Made by a program: the position numbers and the translations under genes. From Planctomycetota bacterium (lineage in GTDB: Bacteria; Planctomycetota; Phycisphaerae; UBA1845), in NCBI GenBank assembly GCA_024275565.1, contig JAJRYY010000009.1, positions 6,756 through 70,755 of the forward strand: a stretch of 64,000 nucleotides of DNA, given 5' to 3'. Below the pieces are notes generated by a model, which was not told the DNA's origin, ran no database searches, and worked only from the letters and a program-made list of their open reading frames with translations. The number at the start of each line of letters is the position of its first letter. Within the stretch, counting starts at the first letter, position 1. Positions 31,043 to 43,986 of the stretch are shown one piece after another.

Positions 31043-31684
31043 TCAAATGAACTTATCGAGTTCATCGGGATTCTTCAGAAACGTCTTGATCAACTCACCG
31101 CGCTTTAGCAACCAATCTGAATGCCCGAGGTCTTTCCGCATCGCCCGTAGTAGGTCATCCATTGCAACCAGGATATTCAAATCACTATTTTCTGACGCTA
31201 CACGAAACTTGCCGTATGCCTGAATGACATCACGCGACCCCCATATGACAAGATCAGTGACGAATTCCTGGTAGAAAGACACCAGTTCCGTGTTTTCTGC
31301 GATAGCGTTGCCCGAGTTGTCATTCTTGTACTTAATCATCACGTCCATGACTTTCTTGATGAACCTGACGTAAAGCTGGATTTTCTGCGGACGATGCGAT
31401 TCCGAAATCTCGCGCGTTTTAGATCGCTGCTGGGAAATAATGACAGCACCGAATCCGACAATAGACGTTGCGGCGCCAGCGATAATCGCAGCAACGACTT
31501 CGGACTCCACCGATGACAACCATCTCAGAACGACAAGCCCGCCCATCCGTATCCCAACAAGAATGCCCATTACGATCGCGATTGCGGATAAGGTAGGAAG
31601 AGCCGCGTAAACTCGACTCATCCTATTATTCGAATTCGTTCCTATGTCGGCAAGCACTTCGTCGCCTGGGTTGAGCTTGATCAT
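31043..31684 (-). CDS. hypothetical 2-TM membrane protein encoded in a low-GC islet
   Basis: 213 aa. Local GC is roughly 45% against ~60% in the surroundings. No recognisable motif. Confidence 0.45.
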   Translation of the reverse strand: MIKLNPGDEVLADIGTNSNNRMSRVYAALPTLSAIAIVMGILVGIRMGGLVVLRWLSSVESEVVAAIIAGAATSIVGFGAVIISQQRSKTREISESHRPQKIQLYVRFIKKVMDVMIKYKNDNSGNAIAENTELVSFYQEFVTDLVIWGSRDVIQAYGKFRVASENSDLNILVAMDDLLRAMRKDLGHSDWLLKRGELIKTFLKNPDELDKFI

Positions 31685-32115
31685 CGGTTGAGCTCGCTAT
31701 TCAGTTTCATCGAGGCGCTGTTGAATCGCATCCGGGTATTGAAACGGGGACGTAGCTAGCTAAGACGCTCCCCATCATATGGGCATGTCCATTGCGACCG
31801 TATGCCAACGCGATGCTTGTTCTGGACATGCGTTGTTGCCTTCTGCCGTTGAATTGATGGCCCAGTATATATTGTTGCCTAACAGAAGTCAAATATGGGA
31901 TTGGCATGGCTGTGCGAGATGGTTGTGATGTTGAGGTCGGTTTTTTGCCTGTATATTGGAGATTTTGGTGGTTTGGGGGACGGGTGACGCGTTGGGTTTG
32001 TCGATGTCGGGCAATGCCCGACCTACCTTCCGGCGGGTGAAACCCGCCCTGCAGGGGTTTCATGAGCTATTTCCGGTCTTAACGTCCGAATAATGGAACA
32101 CGGTTTGACTAGAAC

Positions 32116-32138
32116 GACTTAGTCGTGTAGACTAAGTC
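32116..32138. promoter_or_regulatory. perfect 9-bp inverted repeat (GACTTAGTC-gtgta-GACTAAGTC) overlapping the antitoxin start; putative TA operator
   Basis: The palindrome lies 2 bp upstream of the ATG at 32140. Confidence 0.4.
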
Positions 32139-32139
32139 T

Positions 32140-32385
32140 ATGGGGATGGTAAACATCCACTGAAGCAGCAAGACGCACCTCTCGAAATTGCTGGAGCGGA
32201 TTGCGCGCGGTGAAGAGATTATCATCGCCAAGGCAGGCAAGCCCATTGCACGATTGATCCCCTATACTGATCGCCACGCACCGCGCGTTGGCGCTCAGTG
32301 GAAAGGTCTTGTCCGCATCCATGAAGATTTCGACGAACCCCTGCCTCCAGAGATGAATGCAGGATTCATGGGTGAAGGCCCGTGA
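32140..32385 (+). pseudogene. Phd/YefM-family antitoxin gene interrupted by an in-frame TGA at codon 8
   Basis: MGMVNIH*SSKTHLSKLLERIARGEEIIIAKAGKPIARLIPY...DFDEPLPPEMNAGFMGEG matches the Phd-type antitoxin family apart from the stop at 32161-32163. Confidence 0.6.
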
Positions 32386-32764
32386 GTGGTTACCTGCTGG
32401 ATACGCACGTCATTTTGTGGTGGCTGGATGAGATCCCACCCAATTGTCTTCTGAGGCTTGCGAGGCGATTTCAGACGCGGATAATGATGTGTTTGTGAGC
32501 GCTGCCGTCGCCTGGGAGATGGCGATCAAGAAATCCATCGGGCGCCTCGACATTCCCGGCAATCTACCAGACGTGCTCAGTTCTGACATCATTAAGGTGC
32601 TAGACATCAACATCCATCACGCCCTGGCTGTGGGTGATTTGCCGATCCTCCTCCAGGATCCCTTCGACCGCATTCAGATCGTTCAGGCCAATCTGGAAAA
32701 TCTGATCCTGATTACCCACGACAAAAGAGTTCAGCAATACGACGTGAAATGGTGGGCCACCTGA
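32382..32764 (+). pseudogene. VapC-like PIN-domain toxin gene with a frameshift near 32420-32445
   Basis: Frame 0 reads VSGYLLDTHVILWWLDEIPP..., which is the PIN N-terminus. The remainder (LSSEACEAISDADNDVFVSAAVAWEMAIKKSIGRLDI...) continues in another frame (32444-32764). Confidence 0.6.
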
Positions 32765-32766
32765 TC

Positions 32767-32885
32767 AGGTTACGGTATACGCCGGTGTTTTTGAATCATC
32801 TGATCAGCGTGTCAGCCGGGATCGCGCGATCATGACGTTTTTGCTCCACACGATGGATCGCAACCCTGAGTATGCCCCGCGACCT
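32767..32885 (+). repeat. degenerate ~115-bp duplicate of an internal 3' segment of the UbiA-family gene (30575-30690)
   Basis: cggtatacgccggtgtttttgaatcatctgatcagcgtgtcagccgggatcgcg...acgatggatcgcaaccctgagtatgcc matches the original with about 8 differences. Confidence 0.7.
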
Positions 32886-33099
32886 GCCCCCATTTTATGT
32901 ACTGAAAAACATCCTGATGATCTGCCAACCGGAGTTGGTGAATCACCTGTTTACACGGGGCGTAACGACCTCGAGCCGAGCAATGACGGGTCTTGAAATT
33001 CCACCGCCCAGCCCCAACGCCTACCTGTCGATTTGACGAATATCAGCCGTCCAGAGAGGCTGCCGCCGATTTCTTCTTTGCCAGGCTGGATATGCCCGG

Positions 33100-33139
33100 C
33101 GGCGTCCATCTCTGCAGAGCGGCGTCCATCTCTGCAGAG
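33100..33139. promoter_or_regulatory. perfect 20-bp tandem duplication, each unit containing the palindrome CTCTGCAGAG, ~250 bp upstream of the G8 protein gene
   Basis: cggcgtccatctctgcagag occurs twice, back to back. Confidence 0.35.
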
Positions 33140-33391
33140 ATGTGCGATGCCATCCAGCAACACTTCAAGCAGCCTTGAGTTACTCCAAACAGCCTTGAAT
33201 TCGTACCGGATTATGCTAAAGTAGTGCTTCAGATTTCATCTGATGGGGAAAACCTGCCCCAGAACGCACGTTGTCGCATTTCGAATTTGTCAACGCTCAG
33301 GTTTCGCGAGCGGCGGGGTGATTGTTCATCTCAGAAGCATTGGTCGCAGGTGAAAAGCAAAATTTACTCAGACAGGAAAGGAGTCCTACTT

Positions 33392-39025: not shown

Positions 39026-39095
39026 AAGAGGGGCGGGATTCGAACCCGCTACCGCACGGTTAAACCGTGTGCTCTTACCAGATGAGCTACCCAGG
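39026..39095 (-). tRNA. tRNA-like gene (possible tRNA pseudogene) with canonical D- and T-arms but non-pairing acceptor stem
   Basis: The reverse complement reads ...TAGCTCATCTGGTAAGAGC-A-CACGGTTTAACCGTGCG-GTA-GCGGGTTCGAATCCCGC-CCCTCTTG. The T-loop is TTCGAAT. The anticodon region contains TTTAA, giving either a UUA or UAA anticodon depending on how the loop is drawn. Confidence 0.45.
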
Positions 39096-39178
39096 TGGTC
39101 TGGACAGGAATCGAACCTGCTTCACTGTAAGGTGACAGCCCTTAACAGGCTGCGCTCGACCATCGAGCATCCAGAACC
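39096..39178 (-). tRNA. class-II-like tRNA (15-nt variable arm), anticodon loop TGTTAAG, isotype unresolved
   Basis: The reverse complement reads GGTTCTGG-AT-GCTCGATGGTCGAGC-G-CAGCC-TGTTAAG-GGCTG-TCACCTTACAGTGAA-GCAGGTTCGATTCCTGT-CCAGACC-A. The acceptor stem pairs only with one bulge or mismatch. Confidence 0.55.
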
Positions 39179-39383: not shown

Positions 39384-40400
39384 TTACGCGATAGATATAA
39401 CGATGGCGCGACTGTCCTCACGTTCCGTTTCGATCTCAACGTCAAGAAACTTACCAATCAGATCAACATGCGTTTCAGAATGACGAGACAATCCCGTAGA
39501 CCGAAACGTTCCAGACCCCGCGATCGCCATCGGCAGCAACAACTGATCCGTCAGATACTCTCCAACCGGAGCAGATGACCGAAGATAACGCTGACACTGC
39601 TGAACCGCATGGGAAGCGACAGCCTCAGCAGCTCGACCAACCTCACCGAAACCCGTAAAAACTTCCGTCACGTTCTCATACCCAAGCTCGATCGTCACAA
39701 TATTTCCAGGACCCACAGGGCGATCGATCTCAACAACTTCCGCTTCACCCTCATCCCAACCGAGACGCTTCCGCATGACGCGAACTTCCCGATCAGCGAT
39801 CTTCCGATCAAGACTCGATACAACCGCCCGCCCACATCGCCGCACCAGATCGCCACGCTCCACAATGCTGATCCCACCGAAAGATTCAGCAGGTGTCACA
39901 TCCACAACCATACGTCCCCCACCCGCCGGATAGAACCCATACCTCTCAAGGGTCACCGATACCTTCGGACCCATCCGATTCACAAGCGGAAGGTACGACC
40001 GCTCAAGAAAGTCAAACGGAGGTGCATACGGATTATGCGTCCCGCCCTCAAGCACGATCCGACTCGGCGCTTTCGCAAGTGCAAGCGGAAGCAAAATCGT
40101 CTGCAGCACAAGCGTCGTACTACCCGCCGTCCCAATACTGAACGTATAATCACCACCCACAGCCACACCCGGAACAAACACCAGCTCGGTCGAACCCATC
40201 TCATCGCCCTCGACCTTACACCGCCCAATCTCAGCAGCAGCACGGACAGCCGTAAGGTGTTGTCGCAGCAGTCCGGGCTTCCTCCGCTTCGCACGAATAT
40301 TCTCAATTCGAAACGCCCTACCCGTAACGATCGACAGCGCAAGGGACGATCGCAATATCTGCCCCCCGCCTTCACAAAATGAACCATCAACCGTCAACAT
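39384..40400 (-). CDS. rtcA: RNA 3'-terminal phosphate cyclase
   Basis: MLTVDGSFCEGGGQILRSSLALSIVTGRAFRIENIRAKRRKPGL is the RtcA N-terminal signature. Confidence 0.85.
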   Translation of the reverse strand: MLTVDGSFCEGGGQILRSSLALSIVTGRAFRIENIRAKRRKPGLLRQHLTAVRAAAEIGRCKVEGDEMGSTELVFVPGVAVGGDYTFSIGTAGSTTLVLQTILLPLALAKAPSRIVLEGGTHNPYAPPFDFLERSYLPLVNRMGPKVSVTLERYGFYPAGGGRMVVDVTPAESFGGISIVERGDLVRRCGRAVVSSLDRKIADREVRVMRKRLGWDEGEAEVVEIDRPVGPGNIVTIELGYENVTEVFTGFGEVGRAAEAVASHAVQQCQRYLRSSAPVGEYLTDQLLLPMAIAGSGTFRSTGLSRHSETHVDLIGKFLDVEIETEREDSRAIVISIA

Positions 40401-40484
40401 CACAACAACCTCCTGGAAAGAACAATTCATCGACAGGGCGACCATGTCTTCCTAACAACAGGGCGCCCATATCTTCTTCAACAG

Positions 40485-40730: not shown

Positions 40731-42242
40731 TCAATCATCCGCCGCAGAAGCATCCTTAATCACAAAACGCGCCTTCAACCGTGCAACCTCAGAAGCCAGC
40801 CCGGCAAGCTTCACAGAACGAAGCACCTCATCAAAATCCTTATAGACAGCCGGGGCTTCATCCATCGGATAATTCCGGCAATTCGTCATAATATCGCACG
40901 TCTCGAACGACGCATTGATCGACTTCTGATCCAGCGACCGGATCGCGGCTTTGCGACCCATCACGCGTCCGGCACCATGATTCACACTGTAACAACTAAT
41001 CTCCGCACCCTTATCCGCCACCATGACAGCCGACCCCCGCTGCGGATCACCCGGCAGCAAAATAGGATGCCCGCTCTTGGCAAACGGCGTATCCTTCAAC
41101 GCATAATGACCACCAGGAAACGCCCGGGTCGCACCCTTACGCATCACCCAGGAAGGTCGGTTATTCACAATCTCCTTCCGCGCAATATTATGACTGATGA
41201 GGTAAACCAGCTCACCAGACACACCCGGAATGACCTCCTGAAAAGCCTCCAGCACAAGCGCGTTAATCAGCAGATGATTCACAGTCGCAAAATTCGCTCC
41301 CATGGACATATCATCGATATAAGCATTCGCCTCAGGCGTCCCAAGCGGTGCATAACACAAATGCCTGTCATTCCCAGGATACTCTATACCCCACCGGTCA
41401 AACTTCCGCTGCAACGCCTGAAACTGTCCCATAGCAAGGTTGTGACCAAATCCACGCGATCCACAGTGCGAGAGAAACGCGACATGCTTATCCCGCAGCC
41501 CGAAGGTCTCAGCACAGTGCTTCGCCCGGCTGTCATCACCAACCTCCACCACCTCACACTCGCCAAAATGATTACCGCCACCATACGACCCAAGCTGCGT
41601 AACCTTCTCCCTGAACTTCGGAAACGCCCCGGAGTGCAGTAGCCAGTCGAGTCGAGCACCCAGCGCATCCCGGGTTTCATCGTGTCCCAGGTGGAAAGAG
41701 TCCTCACAACGCGTCGCCCACCGTGCAGGGACACCCATCGCCTCACAAACCCCCTGCGACGCACCTTCGATCGCAACGCGTCTCCCCAGCGGCTCGCCCA
41801 CATGCCTCGATTTTCGGACGCTGCGCTGGCCCCGCCCCGCTCCCGTAGGCGTCCGCTCACAAATCGCCTCAATCACCGCCCGCCGGGTACGACGATCCAG
41901 AACCTCATTTTCAGGCAAATCAAGCTGCAATAAGCTCATGGAACACTTGATATCCACGCCTACGGGACCGGGGTAGATGTGGGAGGCGGAGGCCATCACG
42001 CAGCCAATGGGGGCGCCATACCCGATATGGGCATCGGGGTTCAGTACCACTTCATCCACGCCGGGGGCGAGGCGGGCATTGACCACCTGCTGCAAAGTGG
42101 CGTCATCAAACGTATCAAGGATAGCCTCGGTCCCAATAACCGTTATTGGCTTCACCTTACCGTCAGCCACCGGCAAAATAGACGTTGCCGCACCCGTACT
42201 CACCAGTCTGTTCGTATGCTTCGCCATCAGAATACTCCTCAC
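40731..42242 (-). CDS. rtcB: RNA-splicing ligase RtcB
   Basis: 503 aa with the RtcB His/Cys metal-site motifs and the VNHGAGR block. Confidence 0.9.
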   Translation of the reverse strand: MRSILMAKHTNRLVSTGAATSILPVADGKVKPITVIGTEAILDTFDDATLQQVVNARLAPGVDEVVLNPDAHIGYGAPIGCVMASASHIYPGPVGVDIKCSMSLLQLDLPENEVLDRRTRRAVIEAICERTPTGAGRGQRSVRKSRHVGEPLGRRVAIEGASQGVCEAMGVPARWATRCEDSFHLGHDETRDALGARLDWLLHSGAFPKFREKVTQLGSYGGGNHFGECEVVEVGDDSRAKHCAETFGLRDKHVAFLSHCGSRGFGHNLAMGQFQALQRKFDRWGIEYPGNDRHLCYAPLGTPEANAYIDDMSMGANFATVNHLLINALVLEAFQEVIPGVSGELVYLISHNIARKEIVNNRPSWVMRKGATRAFPGGHYALKDTPFAKSGHPILLPGDPQRGSAVMVADKGAEISCYSVNHGAGRVMGRKAAIRSLDQKSINASFETCDIMTNCRNYPMDEAPAVYKDFDEVLRSVKLAGLASEVARLKARFVIKDASAADD

Positions 42243-42265
42243 GTTCCATGTGTACTGATAACCAT

Positions 42266-42282
42266 AAGCACCCTGCGTGCCA
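42266..42282 (-). promoter_or_regulatory. sigma-54 (-24/-12) promoter for rtcBA
   Basis: The minus strand reads TGGCACGcaggGTGCT, with a perfect -24 TGGCACG and correct spacing to a GC at -12. It lies 25-40 bp upstream of the rtcB start and next to the divergent rtcR. Confidence 0.5.
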
Positions 42283-42378
42283 GTTAGTCAAGTGTTGATT
42301 TATGGTGAAAAACGCCTGTGTGGTGCTGCGGATTTCCGAAAAGTTGATAAATCTGGATAGTTTTTTATAATCCTCGCT

Positions 42379-43986
42379 ATGTTGAACGTCGCAATCGGAA
42401 TGCTGGGCATGATGCGGGATCGCGGGGATGGACCGGATCGGTGGTCGCAATGGCGCCCTACTGTGTCTTTGTGTCAGCACGAGGATCTGTTGATCAGCCG
42501 TCTCGAACTGCTCGTCGAGACAGGATCGATGGATCTGGCGAATCGGGTGGCAGCCGACGTTCGCTCGGTATCCCCCGAGACCGAAGTTCGCCTCCATATG
42601 ATCGAATTTGGCGATCCATGGGACTTCGAGAATGTCTACAGCGTCCTGCACGGGTTTGCCCTGGATTACCAGTTTGACACCGATCAGGAGCGGTATCTGA
42701 TTCATGTGACCACGGGTACCCATGTCGCTCAAATCTGCACCTACCTGCTGACGGAATCCCGGCATCTTCCCGGGCGGTTGATTCAGACGGCGCCTCCGAA
42801 GCGGCGTAGTTCTGGGCAGGCTGGCCGGTATACGATTATTGATCTGGATTTGTCGAAATACGATCGAATCGCGCAGCGTTTTGAAAGCGAGCAGCGCGAA
42901 GGATCTGAATTCCTGAAGGCTGGGATTCAGACGCGTAATGTTGCTTTTAATCGCATGATTGACGAGATCGAATATGTGGCGATCCACTCGCGGGCGCCGA
43001 TCCTGCTGACGGGTCCGACGGGGGCGGGGAAGTCGAGTCTCGCCCGTCGTATCTTTGATCTGCGGAAGTTGCGGAACAACGTTGCGGGTCGTTTTGTGGA
43101 GGTCAACTGTGCGACCTTGCGTGGTGACGGAGCGATGTCTGCTCTTTTTGGTCATACGCGTGGATCGTTCACGGGGGCTGCTCAGGATCGGGCTGGATTG
43201 CTGAAGGAAGCCCACCTTGGGATTCTGTTTCTTGATGAGGTTGGCGAGCTGGGTCTGGATGAACAGGCGATGCTCTTGCGGGCTGTCGAAGAGCATCGTT
43301 TTCTTCCGCTTGGATCGGACAAGGAGGTCAGCAGTGATTTTCAGCTGATCTGCGGTACGAATCGCGACCTCGGGGCTGATGTCCGGTCGGGTCGATTTCG
43401 CAACGATCTGTTGTCCCGGATCAACCTCTGGGCATTTGAACTGCCGGGGTTGGCGCAGCGGCGTGAGGATATTGAACCGAACGTTCATTTTTCTCTTGAG
43501 CAGGTCACGGTTGCGACGGGCCATCGTTTTCGGTTCAACAAGGAGGCATTGGATATGTTTCTGCGGTTTGCGGAATGTCCGGATACCCCCTGGACCGGGA
43601 ATTTTCGAGACCTCGACGCTGCCATAGCCCGGATGGCGACCTTGGCGCCGTCCGGGAGGATTACGGAGGAGGCGGTGGATCGTGAGATTGATCGCCTCAA
43701 GCGGTCGTGGCGTGATTCTGGAACGTCTGCTTCGGTCGATGGTACGCATGTTCTGGAAGCCCTGCTGGGAGACAGGCTGGACGACCTTGACGAATTCGAC
43801 AGGGTTCAACTCGAGCGTGTGGTGCTGGTCTGTATGGAGTCGCGGTCCTTGTCGGTGGCTGGCCGTCGTTTGTTCGCTGCCTCAAGGCGTAAGCGGAAGG
43901 CGCCGAACGATGCGGATCGCCTTCGGAAGTATTTGTCGCGGTATCGACTGGACTGGTCCATGGTGAAAGACGCTCTTCCCGGGTGA
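42379..43986 (+). CDS. rtcR: sigma-54-dependent transcriptional activator RtcR (CARF-AAA+-HTH)
   Basis: Walker A LLTGPTGAGKSSLARRIF and the GAFTGA-like region are present. There is an N-terminal CARF-like domain and a C-terminal HTH. Confidence 0.85.
   Translation: MLNVAIGMLGMMRDRGDGPDRWSQWRPTVSLCQHEDLLISRLELLVETGSMDLANRVAADVRSVSPETEVRLHMIEFGDPWDFENVYSVLHGFALDYQFDTDQERYLIHVTTGTHVAQICTYLLTESRHLPGRLIQTAPPKRRSSGQAGRYTIIDLDLSKYDRIAQRFESEQREGSEFLKAGIQTRNVAFNRMIDEIEYVAIHSRAPILLTGPTGAGKSSLARRIFDLRKLRNNVAGRFVEVNCATLRGDGAMSALFGHTRGSFTGAAQDRAGLLKEAHLGILFLDEVGELGLDEQAMLLRAVEEHRFLPLGSDKEVSSDFQLICGTNRDLGADVRSGRFRNDLLSRINLWAFELPGLAQRREDIEPNVHFSLEQVTVATGHRFRFNKEALDMFLRFAECPDTPWTGNFRDLDAAIARMATLAPSGRITEEAVDREIDRLKRSWRDSGTSASVDGTHVLEALLGDRLDDLDEFDRVQLERVVLVCMESRSLSVAGRRLFAASRRKRKAPNDADRLRKYLSRYRLDWSMVKDALPG

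What the first reader, a model, noticed from the sequence alone, without database searches (positions are those of the whole stretch)
32116..32764. Type II Phd-VapC toxin-antitoxin module with both genes inactivated, and an intact palindromic operator
The antitoxin reading frame (MGMVNIH*SSKTHLSKLLERIARGEEIIIAKAGKPIARLIPY...DFDEPLPPE) is a textbook Phd/YefM-type antitoxin apart from a TGA at codon 8. The adjacent PIN-toxin gene begins correctly (YLLDTHVILWWLDE) but shifts frame around 32420-32445 before resuming the VapC sequence (DNDVFVSAAVAWEMAIKK...). TGA is a genuine stop elsewhere in the window, for example at the ClC gene. A perfect 9-bp inverted repeat (GACTTAGTC-N5-GACTAAGTC) overlaps the start and looks like the autoregulatory operator. 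If both lesions are real this is a decaying TA locus. If the assembly has homopolymer errors, the module could be intact.
Basis: partly seen in the sequence, partly recalled or inferred. Interest (0 to 1): 0.55.

Follow-up and report, generated by a model that had tools for sequence, protein, structure and literature searches.

The report
Recently broken Phd–VapC toxin–antitoxin cassette
This is an ordinary bacterial toxin–antitoxin gene pair, with its promoter and repressor-binding sites intact but both genes knocked out by tiny insertions; it is a freshly dead copy of a common selfish module, not a new kind of system.

Summary
Window 32105-32764 is a self-contained Phd/YefM-type antitoxin plus PIN (VapC) toxin cassette.

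**Family placement.** Once repaired, the antitoxin scores 40.4 bits on Pfam PhdYeFM and the toxin 59 bits on PIN. Intact relatives are 80 aa (93% identical) and 126 aa (88% identical).

**Lesions.** Alignment to six intact relatives shows three small insertions, none in a homopolymer:
- T at 32161 plus AG at 32167-68, net +3, which creates the in-frame TGA at antitoxin codon 8.
- GA at 32430-31, which shifts the toxin frame at codon 17.

The toxin also has Leu at His90, a residue invariant in 116 homologues.

**How decayed it is.** Apart from these changes, both repaired proteins score inside the range of intact relatives. The break is therefore recent.

**Genetic code and assembly quality.** TGA is a real stop here: it ends 23 of 48 long ORFs, including ClC, RtcB and malate synthase. 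No other gene in the window looks split.

**The "inverted repeat".** It is really two copies of a 9-bp palindromic box, GACTWAGTC. They sit inside a sigma-70-like promoter (TTGACT-17-TAGACT) whose -10 ends 6 nt before the ATG, which suggests a leaderless mRNA. The box core occurs upstream of 41 of 92 relatives, so it is the family's operator.

**Verdict.** A recently pseudogenised toxin–antitoxin (TA) module. An assembly artefact remains possible and only the reads can settle it. Low novelty.

The parts
32105..32110 (+). -35 hexamer TTGACT of the cassette promoter
   Evidence: The promoter scan finds TTGACT-17-TAGACT at 32105..32133. TTGACTA is invariant or nearly so in six close relatives and in 13 close-clade loci. 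DNA homology to the relatives begins here.
32116..32124 (.). Operator box 1, the 9-bp palindrome GACTTAGTC, in the promoter spacer
   Evidence: Exact match. ACTnAGT is invariant in six relatives even though it lies in a spacer, where a promoter needs no fixed sequence. The ACTWAGT core occurs upstream of 41 of 92 relatives, against a background of 0.0017 per 73 nt.
32128..32133 (+). -10 hexamer TAGACT
   Evidence: It always lies 6 nt before the ATG in 13 close-clade loci, which puts the predicted transcription start on the A of the ATG. The leaderless mRNA is an inference.
32130..32138 (.). Operator box 2, the 9-bp palindrome GACTAAGTC, overlapping the -10, 14 bp centre-to-centre from box 1
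   Evidence: Exact match. In the closest relatives only the GACTA half is kept. More distant relatives have two full boxes, for example L030, L032, L051, L069 and L017.
32140..32385 (+). Phd/YefM-type (VapB) antitoxin pseudogene, 81 codons including the in-frame TGA
   Evidence: The repaired protein is 93% identical to the intact 80-aa P0121.
32161..32168 (+). Antitoxin lesion: inserted T (32161) and inserted AG (32167-68). Net +3 nt, creating TGA at 32161-63
   Evidence: DNA alignment with six intact relatives and protein alignment with 18.
32382..32764 (+). PIN-domain VapC toxin pseudogene. The GTG start overlaps the antitoxin stop (GTGA). The frame breaks at codon 17 and the native stop is TGA 32762-64
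   Evidence: The repaired protein is 88-89% identical to the intact 126-aa P0001. D7, E45, D92/D95 and D113 are retained.
32430..32431 (+). Toxin lesion: 2-nt GA insertion (GATGAT to GATGAGAT). Frame 0 then ends at 32496-98 after 38 aa
   Evidence: DNA alignment with six intact relatives. Homologues read WWLDDP.
32651..32653 (+). Toxin codon 90, CTC (Leu), where all 116 intact homologues have His (CAC in L081)
   Evidence: It lies 5 residues before the catalytic-type Asp of DPFDR.
32444..32764 (+). Residual 106-aa ORF (TTG start) lacking the first catalytic Asp. It is present in the protein collection as a PIN protein (P0002)
   Evidence: Pfam PIN covers only profile positions 20-118.

Best explanation
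Window 32105-32764 is a compact, horizontally mobile type II toxin-antitoxin cassette.

**Components.**
- A sigma-70-like promoter.
- Two palindromic operator boxes.
- A Phd/YefM-fold VapB-type antitoxin gene.
- A translationally coupled PIN-domain VapC toxin gene.

**How intact relatives work** (inferred from the established behaviour of Phd/YefM and VapBC systems). Antitoxin dimers bind the GACTWAGTC boxes through their N-terminal domain. One box lies between -35 and -10 and the other lies on the -10, so binding shuts off the promoter. The antitoxin's C-terminal tail covers the toxin's acidic active site. When the labile antitoxin is degraded, the PIN nuclease cleaves RNA and arrests growth.

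**State in this genome.** The module is dead, and died recently.
- The toxin carries a GA insertion at codon 17. This leaves a 38-aa peptide and a 106-aa fragment that lacks Asp7.
- The toxin also has His90 replaced by Leu, a residue invariant in 116 homologues.
- The antitoxin terminates at codon 8 because of a T + AG double insertion.
- The promoter and both operator boxes are still perfect.

**Most likely order of events.** The toxin was lost first, which removed selection on the antitoxin. This order is inferred, not shown.
For: **Shown**
- Family placement. A VapC-like fold for the closest intact relative: pLDDT 94.9, best match Shigella VapC 3tnd with TM 0.72.
- Operon architecture with a GTGA stop/start overlap, invariant in six relatives.
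- The exact insertions, defined against six intact relatives.
- His90 is invariant in 116 homologues and is Leu here. There are three more residues seen in none of the 116 (I69, W124, T126) and one seen in 1% (C26). The closest relative P0001 has one such residue.
- Repaired proteins score within the range of intact relatives in leave-one-out HMM tests: toxin 220 bits, rank 18 of 41; antitoxin 152.6 bits, rank 9 of 41. So there is little decay other than the insertions.
- Forty-eight long ORFs tile 91% of the window with no split genes detected. These include ORFs of 1381, 1501 and 940 aa and full-length housekeeping genes. Three insertions within 270 bp is therefore far above the window's background.
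- The promoter and boxes are conserved.
- Homology to relatives is confined to 32096/32104-32764 and the flanks are unrelated, which marks a mobile cassette.

**Context from the literature**
- The YefM operator has two palindromes 12 bp apart, one of them on the -10 (PMC4803016).
- Degraded TA loci are common (PMC7354431).
- TA operons are predominantly leaderless in M. tuberculosis (PMC3898074).
Against: - No reads, and no second assembly of the same organism, could be obtained. The lesions rest on a single consensus sequence.
- The +1 and +2 insertions in the antitoxin lie 5 nt apart and together restore the frame. My rough estimate for two independent neutral indels doing this is 0.02-0.04. 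This points to a single complex event, which could be mutational but could also be a local assembly or polishing error.
- The excess of unusual toxin substitutions over the sister sequence is small in number and not statistically decisive on its own.
- DNA binding, leaderless transcription and RNase activity are all inferred from family knowledge and conservation. None was measured.
Confidence: 0.7

Rival explanations
1. Assembly or consensus artefact. The organism carries an intact Phd-VapC module, and the three insertions arose from misassembly, strain-mixture consensus or polishing errors at this locus.
For: - The repaired proteins are indistinguishable in quality from intact relatives, and the promoter and operator are perfect.
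- The T + AG pair is frame-compensating within 8 nt. That is odd for independent neutral mutations.
- The closest retrievable relatives (L081-L083, L104-L109) come from metagenome-derived assemblies, so the source contig is probably a metagenome-assembled genome too. TA modules are often multi-copy, which invites collapsed or chimeric consensus.
- Only one assembly carries this sequence.
Against: - None of the insertions lies in a homopolymer.
- The other roughly 58 kb of coding sequence shows no frame breaks. If the indel error rate is below about 5e-5 per bp, three random errors in 625 bp has a probability of about 1e-5 by my estimate.
- The toxin also carries a substitution at a residue invariant in 116 homologues, plus three other residues seen in none of them. 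That fits real relaxed constraint better than indel-type sequencing error.
Confidence: 0.2
2. Partly functional remnant. An N-terminally truncated antitoxin re-initiates at, for example, TTG 32188 (65 aa) and keeps the toxin-binding C-terminus. It would act as an orphan 'anti-addiction' neutraliser of related incoming VapC toxins. Alternatively, the intact double operator serves as a decoy site.
For: - The 65-aa ORF 32188-32385 is open and keeps the conserved C-terminal half (RVGAQWKGLVRIHEDFDEPLPPE), which is highly conserved among relatives.
- The double insertion preserves the downstream frame.
- Orphan antitoxins with proposed anti-addiction roles are discussed in the literature (PMC7354431).
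Against: - No ribosome-binding site precedes TTG 32188.
- On a leaderless mRNA, translation starts at the 5' AUG and would stop at codon 8.
- The truncated product scores only 18.4 bits on PhdYeFM and would lack the dimerisation and DNA-binding N-terminus.
- There is no evidence of expression.
Confidence: 0.06
3. Programmed recoding. UGA read-through (or selenocysteine) at antitoxin codon 8, plus a -1 ribosomal frameshift at toxin codon 17, yields low regulated amounts of both proteins.
For: - The TGA is in frame with conserved sequence on both sides.
- The first 91 nt of the predicted mRNA fold more stably than shuffled controls (z = -3.4).
Against: - All 100+ intact relatives lack both features and are one codon shorter at the site.
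- No X XXY YYZ slippery heptamer is present at CTGGATGAGATC.
- No SECIS or other Rfam match was found.
- The only tRNA-like genes in the window have a UUA-type anticodon loop, not UCA.
- TGA terminates 23 of 48 long ORFs.
Confidence: 0.02

Closest known systems
VapBC modules whose VapB has a Phd/YefM-fold N-terminal domain (e.g. M. tuberculosis VapBC46, PDB 6jqy)
   Same: - A Phd/YefM-type antitoxin sits upstream of a PIN-domain toxin, and the two genes overlap.
- The antitoxin profile matches VapB46 (E 0.015) and P1 Phd (E 0.009) over residues 1-40.
- NCBIfam also gives a weak TA_VapB match to the C-terminal tail.
- Relatives are named 'type II toxin-antitoxin system VapC family toxin' and 'Phd/YefM family antitoxin' by NCBI.
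   Different: - Sequence similarity to any solved protein is marginal. Single-sequence PDB searches found nothing.
- This subfamily (126-aa toxins starting xxYLLDTHxxLWW, 80-aa antitoxins) matched no solved structure beyond marginal profile hits, and no experimental work on it was found in the few literature searches run.
- The copy in the window is disrupted.
Shigella/Salmonella/F-plasmid VapC (tRNA-fMet endonuclease; PDB 3tnd, 6ifc, 9h6a)
   Same: - It is the best structural match to the model of the closest intact relative: TM 0.72, Foldseek E 1.3e-5.
- The acidic residues align in the profile alignment (D7; PFD motif).
   Different: - Only 16-17% identity.
- Its partner VapB is an AbrB-type antitoxin, not Phd-type.
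- The RNA target of the present subfamily is unknown.
E. coli yefM-yoeB and P1 phd-doc operators
   Same: Two short palindromes are bound by antitoxin dimers, one of them overlapping the -10. [quoted passage not shown] Here there are two 9-bp boxes 14 bp centre-to-centre, and box 2 lies on the -10.
   Different: - Different box sequence: GACTWAGTC against a TGTACA core.
- Different toxin partner: PIN against RelE-like YoeB or Fic-like Doc.
- Binding here is inferred from conservation only.
Degraded chromosomal TA loci (e.g. the frameshifted yacB toxin in Shigella flexneri and the parE pseudogene in Caulobacter, as reviewed in PMC7354431)
   Same: The toxin is inactivated by a small frameshift, and the module remains recognisable.
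   Different: Here the antitoxin is also truncated, while the promoter and operator remain perfect. This indicates a very early stage of decay.

Membership tests
Phd/YefM antitoxin family (PF02604 / TIGR01552) | Significant match of the N-terminal domain to the family profile | tested here: met
   - PF02604 scores 40.4 bits (cut-off 29.8) for the repaired 80-aa sequence, and 29.5 bits with the stop masked as X.
- TIGR01552 scores 29.2 bits (cut-off 20.8).
Phd/YefM antitoxin family (PF02604 / TIGR01552) | An uninterrupted reading frame encoding both the DNA-binding N-terminus and the toxin-binding C-terminus | tested here: not met
   In-frame TGA at codon 8 (32161-63), caused by the T + AG insertions.
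PIN-domain VapC toxins (PF01850) | PIN-domain profile match and PIN fold | tested here: met
- The model of the 88%-identical relative matches solved VapC structures.
PIN-domain VapC toxins (PF01850) | Conserved acidic active-site residues (Asp in beta-1, Glu in helix 3, Asp in the PFD motif, a C-terminal Asp) | tested here: met
   - D7, E45, D92/D95 and D113 are all encoded in the two frame segments.
- However, D7 ends up on a different polypeptide from the others.
- The family-invariant H90 is Leu.
PIN-domain VapC toxins (PF01850) | A single open reading frame of about 126 codons | tested here: not met
   A GA insertion at 32430-31 splits it into a 38-aa ORF and a 106-aa ORF.
Type II toxin-antitoxin operon | Antitoxin gene directly upstream of the toxin gene, co-transcribed, with overlapping or adjacent stop and start | tested here: met
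   A GTGA overlap at 32382-85, invariant in six relatives. The same gene order is found in all nine retrieved close loci.
Type II toxin-antitoxin operon | Autoregulatory operator bound by the antitoxin in the promoter region | tested here: inconclusive
   There are two GACTWAGTC boxes within TTGACT-17-TAGACT. The box is conserved in the closest relatives and strongly enriched upstream of 92 relatives. Conservation is shown. Binding is not testable here.
Type II toxin-antitoxin operon | Toxin arrests growth and the antitoxin neutralises it | not testable with these tools
   This needs expression assays. As assembled, neither full-length product can be made.

The most novel reading that the evidence does not exclude
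The frame-preserving T + AG double insertion, together with the perfectly kept double operator, could mean the locus is not simply dead. It might have been remodelled into a low-expression or truncated antitoxin that is retained as an anti-addiction or immunity element against related incoming Phd-VapC cassettes.

Separately, the comparative data suggest a simple operator code across phyla in this antitoxin subfamily. The box variants are GACTAAGTC, AGCTAAGCT, GACCAGACC repeats and TTGACCAA..TTGGTCAA. In the Planctomycetota-like clade this goes with a fixed leaderless promoter design.
Probability: 0.06. Interest if true: 0.4.

Novelty: new member of a known kind. Interest (0 to 1): 0.15.

Why it matters
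**Limited importance.**
- This is a clean, early-stage example of TA decay. The regulatory DNA is perfect and the coding sequence is almost unworn, yet both genes are broken.
- It fits the expected toxin-first order of loss, although that order is inferred.

**Practical point.** The protein collection holds the 106-aa leftover as a PIN-domain protein (P0002). Such fragments can be miscounted as orphan toxins in TA censuses.

**Side product.** The comparative work defines the likely operator (GACTWAGTC boxes) and a leaderless promoter layout for a widespread Phd-VapC subfamily with no close solved structure. This could guide anyone who wants to study that subfamily.

Tried and rejected
1. **Retrieving the source contig or the closest relative's contig.** I wanted to compare DNA and synteny. 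P0001, P0002 and the neighbouring 213-aa protein are not in the contig index. Cluster look-up gave no names or accessions.
2. **Genome-collection scan with a family alignment.** The metagenome scan returned 42-63% relatives. Both were useful for the operator survey but not for a sister-strain comparison.
3. **Looking for a syntenic sister locus through the upstream neighbour.** The best non-self hit was 57% identical and lay on short contigs. There was no link to the contig carrying P0001/P0121.
4. **Recoding explanations.** There was no Rfam hit (SECIS or other) in 31600-33300 and no slippery site. The ARAGORN 'tRNA-Stop(tta)' turned out to be a tRNA-like element next to rtcBA, and it has the wrong anticodon for UGA.
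5. **Decayed neighbouring genes in the long flanking spacers.** No Pfam hit for any small ORF in 31700-32100 or 32765-33350. I found no remnant of the MazE-type gene that lies upstream of the cassette in L081, L082, L104 and L105.
6. **Literature search for the box sequence.** It returned only unrelated primer and oligonucleotide hits.
7. **dN/dS analysis.** Not attempted. The retrievable relatives are only 71-76% identical at the DNA level, so synonymous sites are saturated.

Full report
**1. Observation**

- An ORF starts at ATG 32140 and reads MGMVNIH, then TGA (32161-63). It continues in the same frame as SSKTHLSKLLERIARGEEIIIAKAGKPIARLIPY...DFDEPLPPEMNAGFMGEGP up to TGA 32383-85.
- A second gene starts at GTG 32382, overlapping that stop as GTGA. 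It reads MSGYLLDTHVILWWLD, then runs into a wrong frame that ends after 38 codons.
- The -1 frame carries DPTQLSSEACEAISDADNDVFVSAAVAWEMAIKK... up to TGA 32762-64.
- The repeat finder reports the perfect pair GACTTAGTC (32116-24) and GACTAAGTC (32130-38).

**2. Family placement**

- With the stop masked, the antitoxin scores 29.5 bits on Pfam PhdYeFM_antitox and 29.2 bits on TIGR01552.
- Repaired to the length of its relatives, it scores 40.4 bits against a cut-off of 29.8.
- The rejoined toxin scores 59 bits on PIN over profile positions 1-118 of 120.
- Database searches found 315 toxin and 1675 antitoxin homologues. Toxin homologues are almost all 124-128 aa and antitoxin homologues mostly 77-86 aa. 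The best intact ones are 88% (P0001, 126 aa) and 93% (P0121, 80 aa) identical, and both come from one 17.5-kb NCBI contig.
- Where sources name them, they are VapC-family toxins and Phd/YefM-family antitoxins, often from Planctomycetota or Phycisphaerae MAGs.
- In nine retrieved close loci, the 80-aa Phd gene directly precedes and overlaps the 126-aa PIN gene.
- An AlphaFold model of P0001 (pLDDT 94.9) matches solved VapC structures best. The top match is Shigella VapC 3tnd, with TM 0.72 and 17% identity.
- Sequence-only PDB searches give only marginal profile hits: P1 Phd at E 0.009, Mtb VapB46 at E 0.015 and VapC at E 0.38. The subfamily has no close solved structure, and the few literature searches run turned up no experimental work on it.

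**3. What exactly is broken**

Antitoxin. The window was aligned with six intact relatives.
- The relatives read ATC CAC GAA GCC AAG AC (I H E A K T).
- The window reads ATC CAC T GAAGC AG CAAG AC.
- So there is an inserted T at 32161 and an inserted AG at 32167-68, net +3 nt. This creates the TGA and adds one codon.

Toxin.
- The relatives read CTG GAT GAT CCC (L D D P).
- The window reads CTGGAT GA GATCCC, a 2-nt insertion at 32430-31.

None of the three insertions lies in a homopolymer.

A further change is toxin codon 90 (32651-53), which is CTC (Leu). All 116 intact homologues have His there.
- The toxin also has three residues seen in none of the 116 (I69, W124, T126) and one seen in 1% (C26).
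- The sister sequence P0001 has one such rarity.
- The antitoxin has only one unique residue (G2).

**4. How decayed is it**

In leave-one-out HMM scoring against 40 close homologues:
- The repaired toxin ranks 18th of 41, at 220 bits. The range is 192-233 bits.
- The repaired antitoxin ranks 9th of 41, at 152.6 bits. The range is 122-158 bits.

All columns invariant in the alignment, which included the window sequence, are kept. These include D7, E45, D92, D95 and D113. The inactivation is therefore recent. The modest excess of odd substitutions in the toxin, including H90L next to the DPFDR motif, fits the expected order of toxin first and antitoxin later. That order is an inference.

**5. 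Real lesion or artefact**

- TGA is a normal stop in this genome. It ends 23 of 48 long ORFs. These include the ClC channel (302-2116), ribosomal protein S2, LpxB, isocitrate lyase, malate synthase, FolD and RtcB, all with full-length Pfam coverage.
- The long ORFs tile 91% of the window. ORFs of 1381, 1501, 940 and 846 aa are unbroken, and candidate split pairs showed no shared domains.
- With no frame break in about 58 kb of other coding DNA, a uniform indel error rate would be below about 5e-5 per bp. Three random errors in this 625-bp cassette would then have a probability near 1e-5 (my estimate). The clustering therefore reflects either relaxed selection or a local assembly problem.
- In favour of a local problem, the T and AG insertions are 5 nt apart and jointly restore the frame. 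Two independent neutral indels would do this with a probability of only about 0.02-0.04 (my estimate).
- I could not obtain reads, the source contig (70,755 nt, NCBI) or a sister genome.
- I put about 0.7 on a genuine pseudogene and about 0.2 on an artefact.

**6. The 'operator'**

DNA homology between the window and nine intact relatives (71-76% identity) starts at 32096-32107 and ends at 32752-64. The mobile unit is therefore the promoter plus the two genes, and the flanks are unrelated.

Upstream of the ATG, six relatives share only the block T(T/G)GACTA-N4-(G/A)ACTWAGT(C/T)-N3-TA(G/A)ACTA-N5-ATGG.
- The promoter scan reads this as TTGACT, a 17-bp spacer, then TAGACT (32105-32133).
- The -10 ends exactly 6 nt before the ATG in all 13 close-clade loci. 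This puts the expected transcription start on the A of the ATG, so a leaderless mRNA is inferred.
- That is common for TA operons in M. tuberculosis, where 32 of 37 are leaderless (PMC3898074).

- Box 1 lies in the spacer, where a promoter needs no fixed sequence, yet it is conserved.
- Box 2 overlaps the -10.
- In the closest relatives only the GACTA half of box 2 is kept.
- Many more distant relatives have two complete boxes 9-14 bp apart, for example L017, L030, L032, L051 and L069.

Across 92 non-redundant relatives:
- The ACTWAGT core occurs in the 73 nt upstream of the antitoxin start in 41. It occurs twice or more in 13.
- The background rate elsewhere in the same loci is 0.0017 per 73 nt.
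- In the window, the only two exact GACTWAGTC sites in 64 kb are these two.

This matches the Phd/YefM paradigm of two short palindromes, one on the -10. The yefM-yoeB L and S repeats are 12 bp centre-to-centre (PMC4803016). Conservation is shown here. Binding is inferred.

**7. Mechanism**

For intact family members, by analogy with established Phd/YefM and VapBC systems:
- Antitoxin dimers occupy the two boxes and block RNA polymerase.
- The toxin is translated by coupling through the GTGA overlap.
- The antitoxin's C-terminal tail (the highly conserved WKGLVRI..DFD.PLP segment) masks the PIN active site.
- Loss of the antitoxin frees the RNase.

For this window:
- Translation from the 5' AUG stops at codon 8.
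- The toxin frame breaks at codon 17.
- The leftover 106-aa ORF lacks Asp7.
- No functional product is expected.

**8. Alternatives considered**

- Recoding is disfavoured. Relatives lack both features, there is no slippery heptamer, and there is no SECIS or other Rfam hit. No UGA-reading tRNA was found.
- A truncated 65-aa antitoxin from TTG 32188 could in principle act as an orphan neutraliser. It has no ribosome-binding site and no evidence of expression.

**9. Comparison and novelty**

- This is a member of the known class of VapBC modules with a Phd-fold VapB. It belongs to a widespread subfamily with no close solved structure, and this copy is in a state of early decay.
- Degraded TA loci are well documented (PMC7354431).
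- Novelty is low.
- The useful by-products are the precise lesion map, the promoter and operator definition for the subfamily, and the warning that the 106-aa fragment is held in the protein collection as a PIN protein (P0002).

Noticed in passing
window 39030-39178 (- strand), with rtcA 39384-40445 (-) and rtcB 40731-42242 (-): Two tandem tRNA-like RNAs lie directly downstream of rtcB-rtcA.
- One is called 'tRNA-Stop(tta)' by ARAGORN: 84 nt, a long variable arm and G at position 33.
- The other matches Rfam tRNA at 40.6 bits. Its anticodon loop is 2 nt short and it has no proper acceptor stem.
- A weak sub-threshold YrlA (Y RNA-like) match overlaps their junction: 25.6 bits against a gathering score of 69.

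This resembles the rsr-yrlBA-rtcBA arrangement of tRNA-mimicking Y RNAs. However, no TROVE/Rsr protein was detected. The 548-aa ORF upstream of rtcB (42163-43809) has no Pfam hit.
   Followed up: partly
loci L001-L109, the 70 nt upstream of the antitoxin start: Across phyla, relatives of this antitoxin carry different but related repeated boxes upstream:
- GACTAAGTC
- AGCTAAGCT
- tandem GACCAGACC repeats
- TTGACCAA..TTGGTCAA

This suggests operator and repressor specificity classes that could be matched to changes in the antitoxin N-terminus. Many distant relatives have a Shine-Dalgarno leader, whereas the close clade has the fixed leaderless layout.
   Followed up: partly
window 32444-32764: The 106-aa remnant of the toxin is held in the protein collection as a PIN-domain protein (P0002, from the 70,755-nt NCBI contig). 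No matching antitoxin product from that contig appeared among the listed hits. Fragments like this can be miscounted as orphan toxins.
   Followed up: yes
window 31685-32104 and 32765-33390: The cassette sits between two unusually long non-coding spacers, about 420 nt and 460-630 nt, in a window that is 91% coding.
- The spacers contain short GC-rich hairpins, for example GTCGGGCA/TGCCCGAC at 32006-22.
- They give no Pfam or Rfam match.
- A 13-mer, CCTTCCGGCGGGT (32026-38), recurs just after the toxin stop in L081 and L082. This is probably chance.
   Followed up: partly
window 31043-31684 (- strand): The upstream neighbour is a 213-aa predicted membrane protein with no Pfam family. It has a sparse, patchy set of homologues: the best non-self hit is 57% identical, mostly on short metagenome contigs. 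Its function is unknown.
   Followed up: partly
L081 4802-5065, L082 305-568, L104 80-343, L105 779-1042: In several close relatives the Phd-VapC cassette lies back-to-back with a second TA-like gene, an 87-aa MazE/AbrB-type antitoxin on the opposite strand. This indicates TA clustering. No trace of that gene is present in the window.
   Followed up: no
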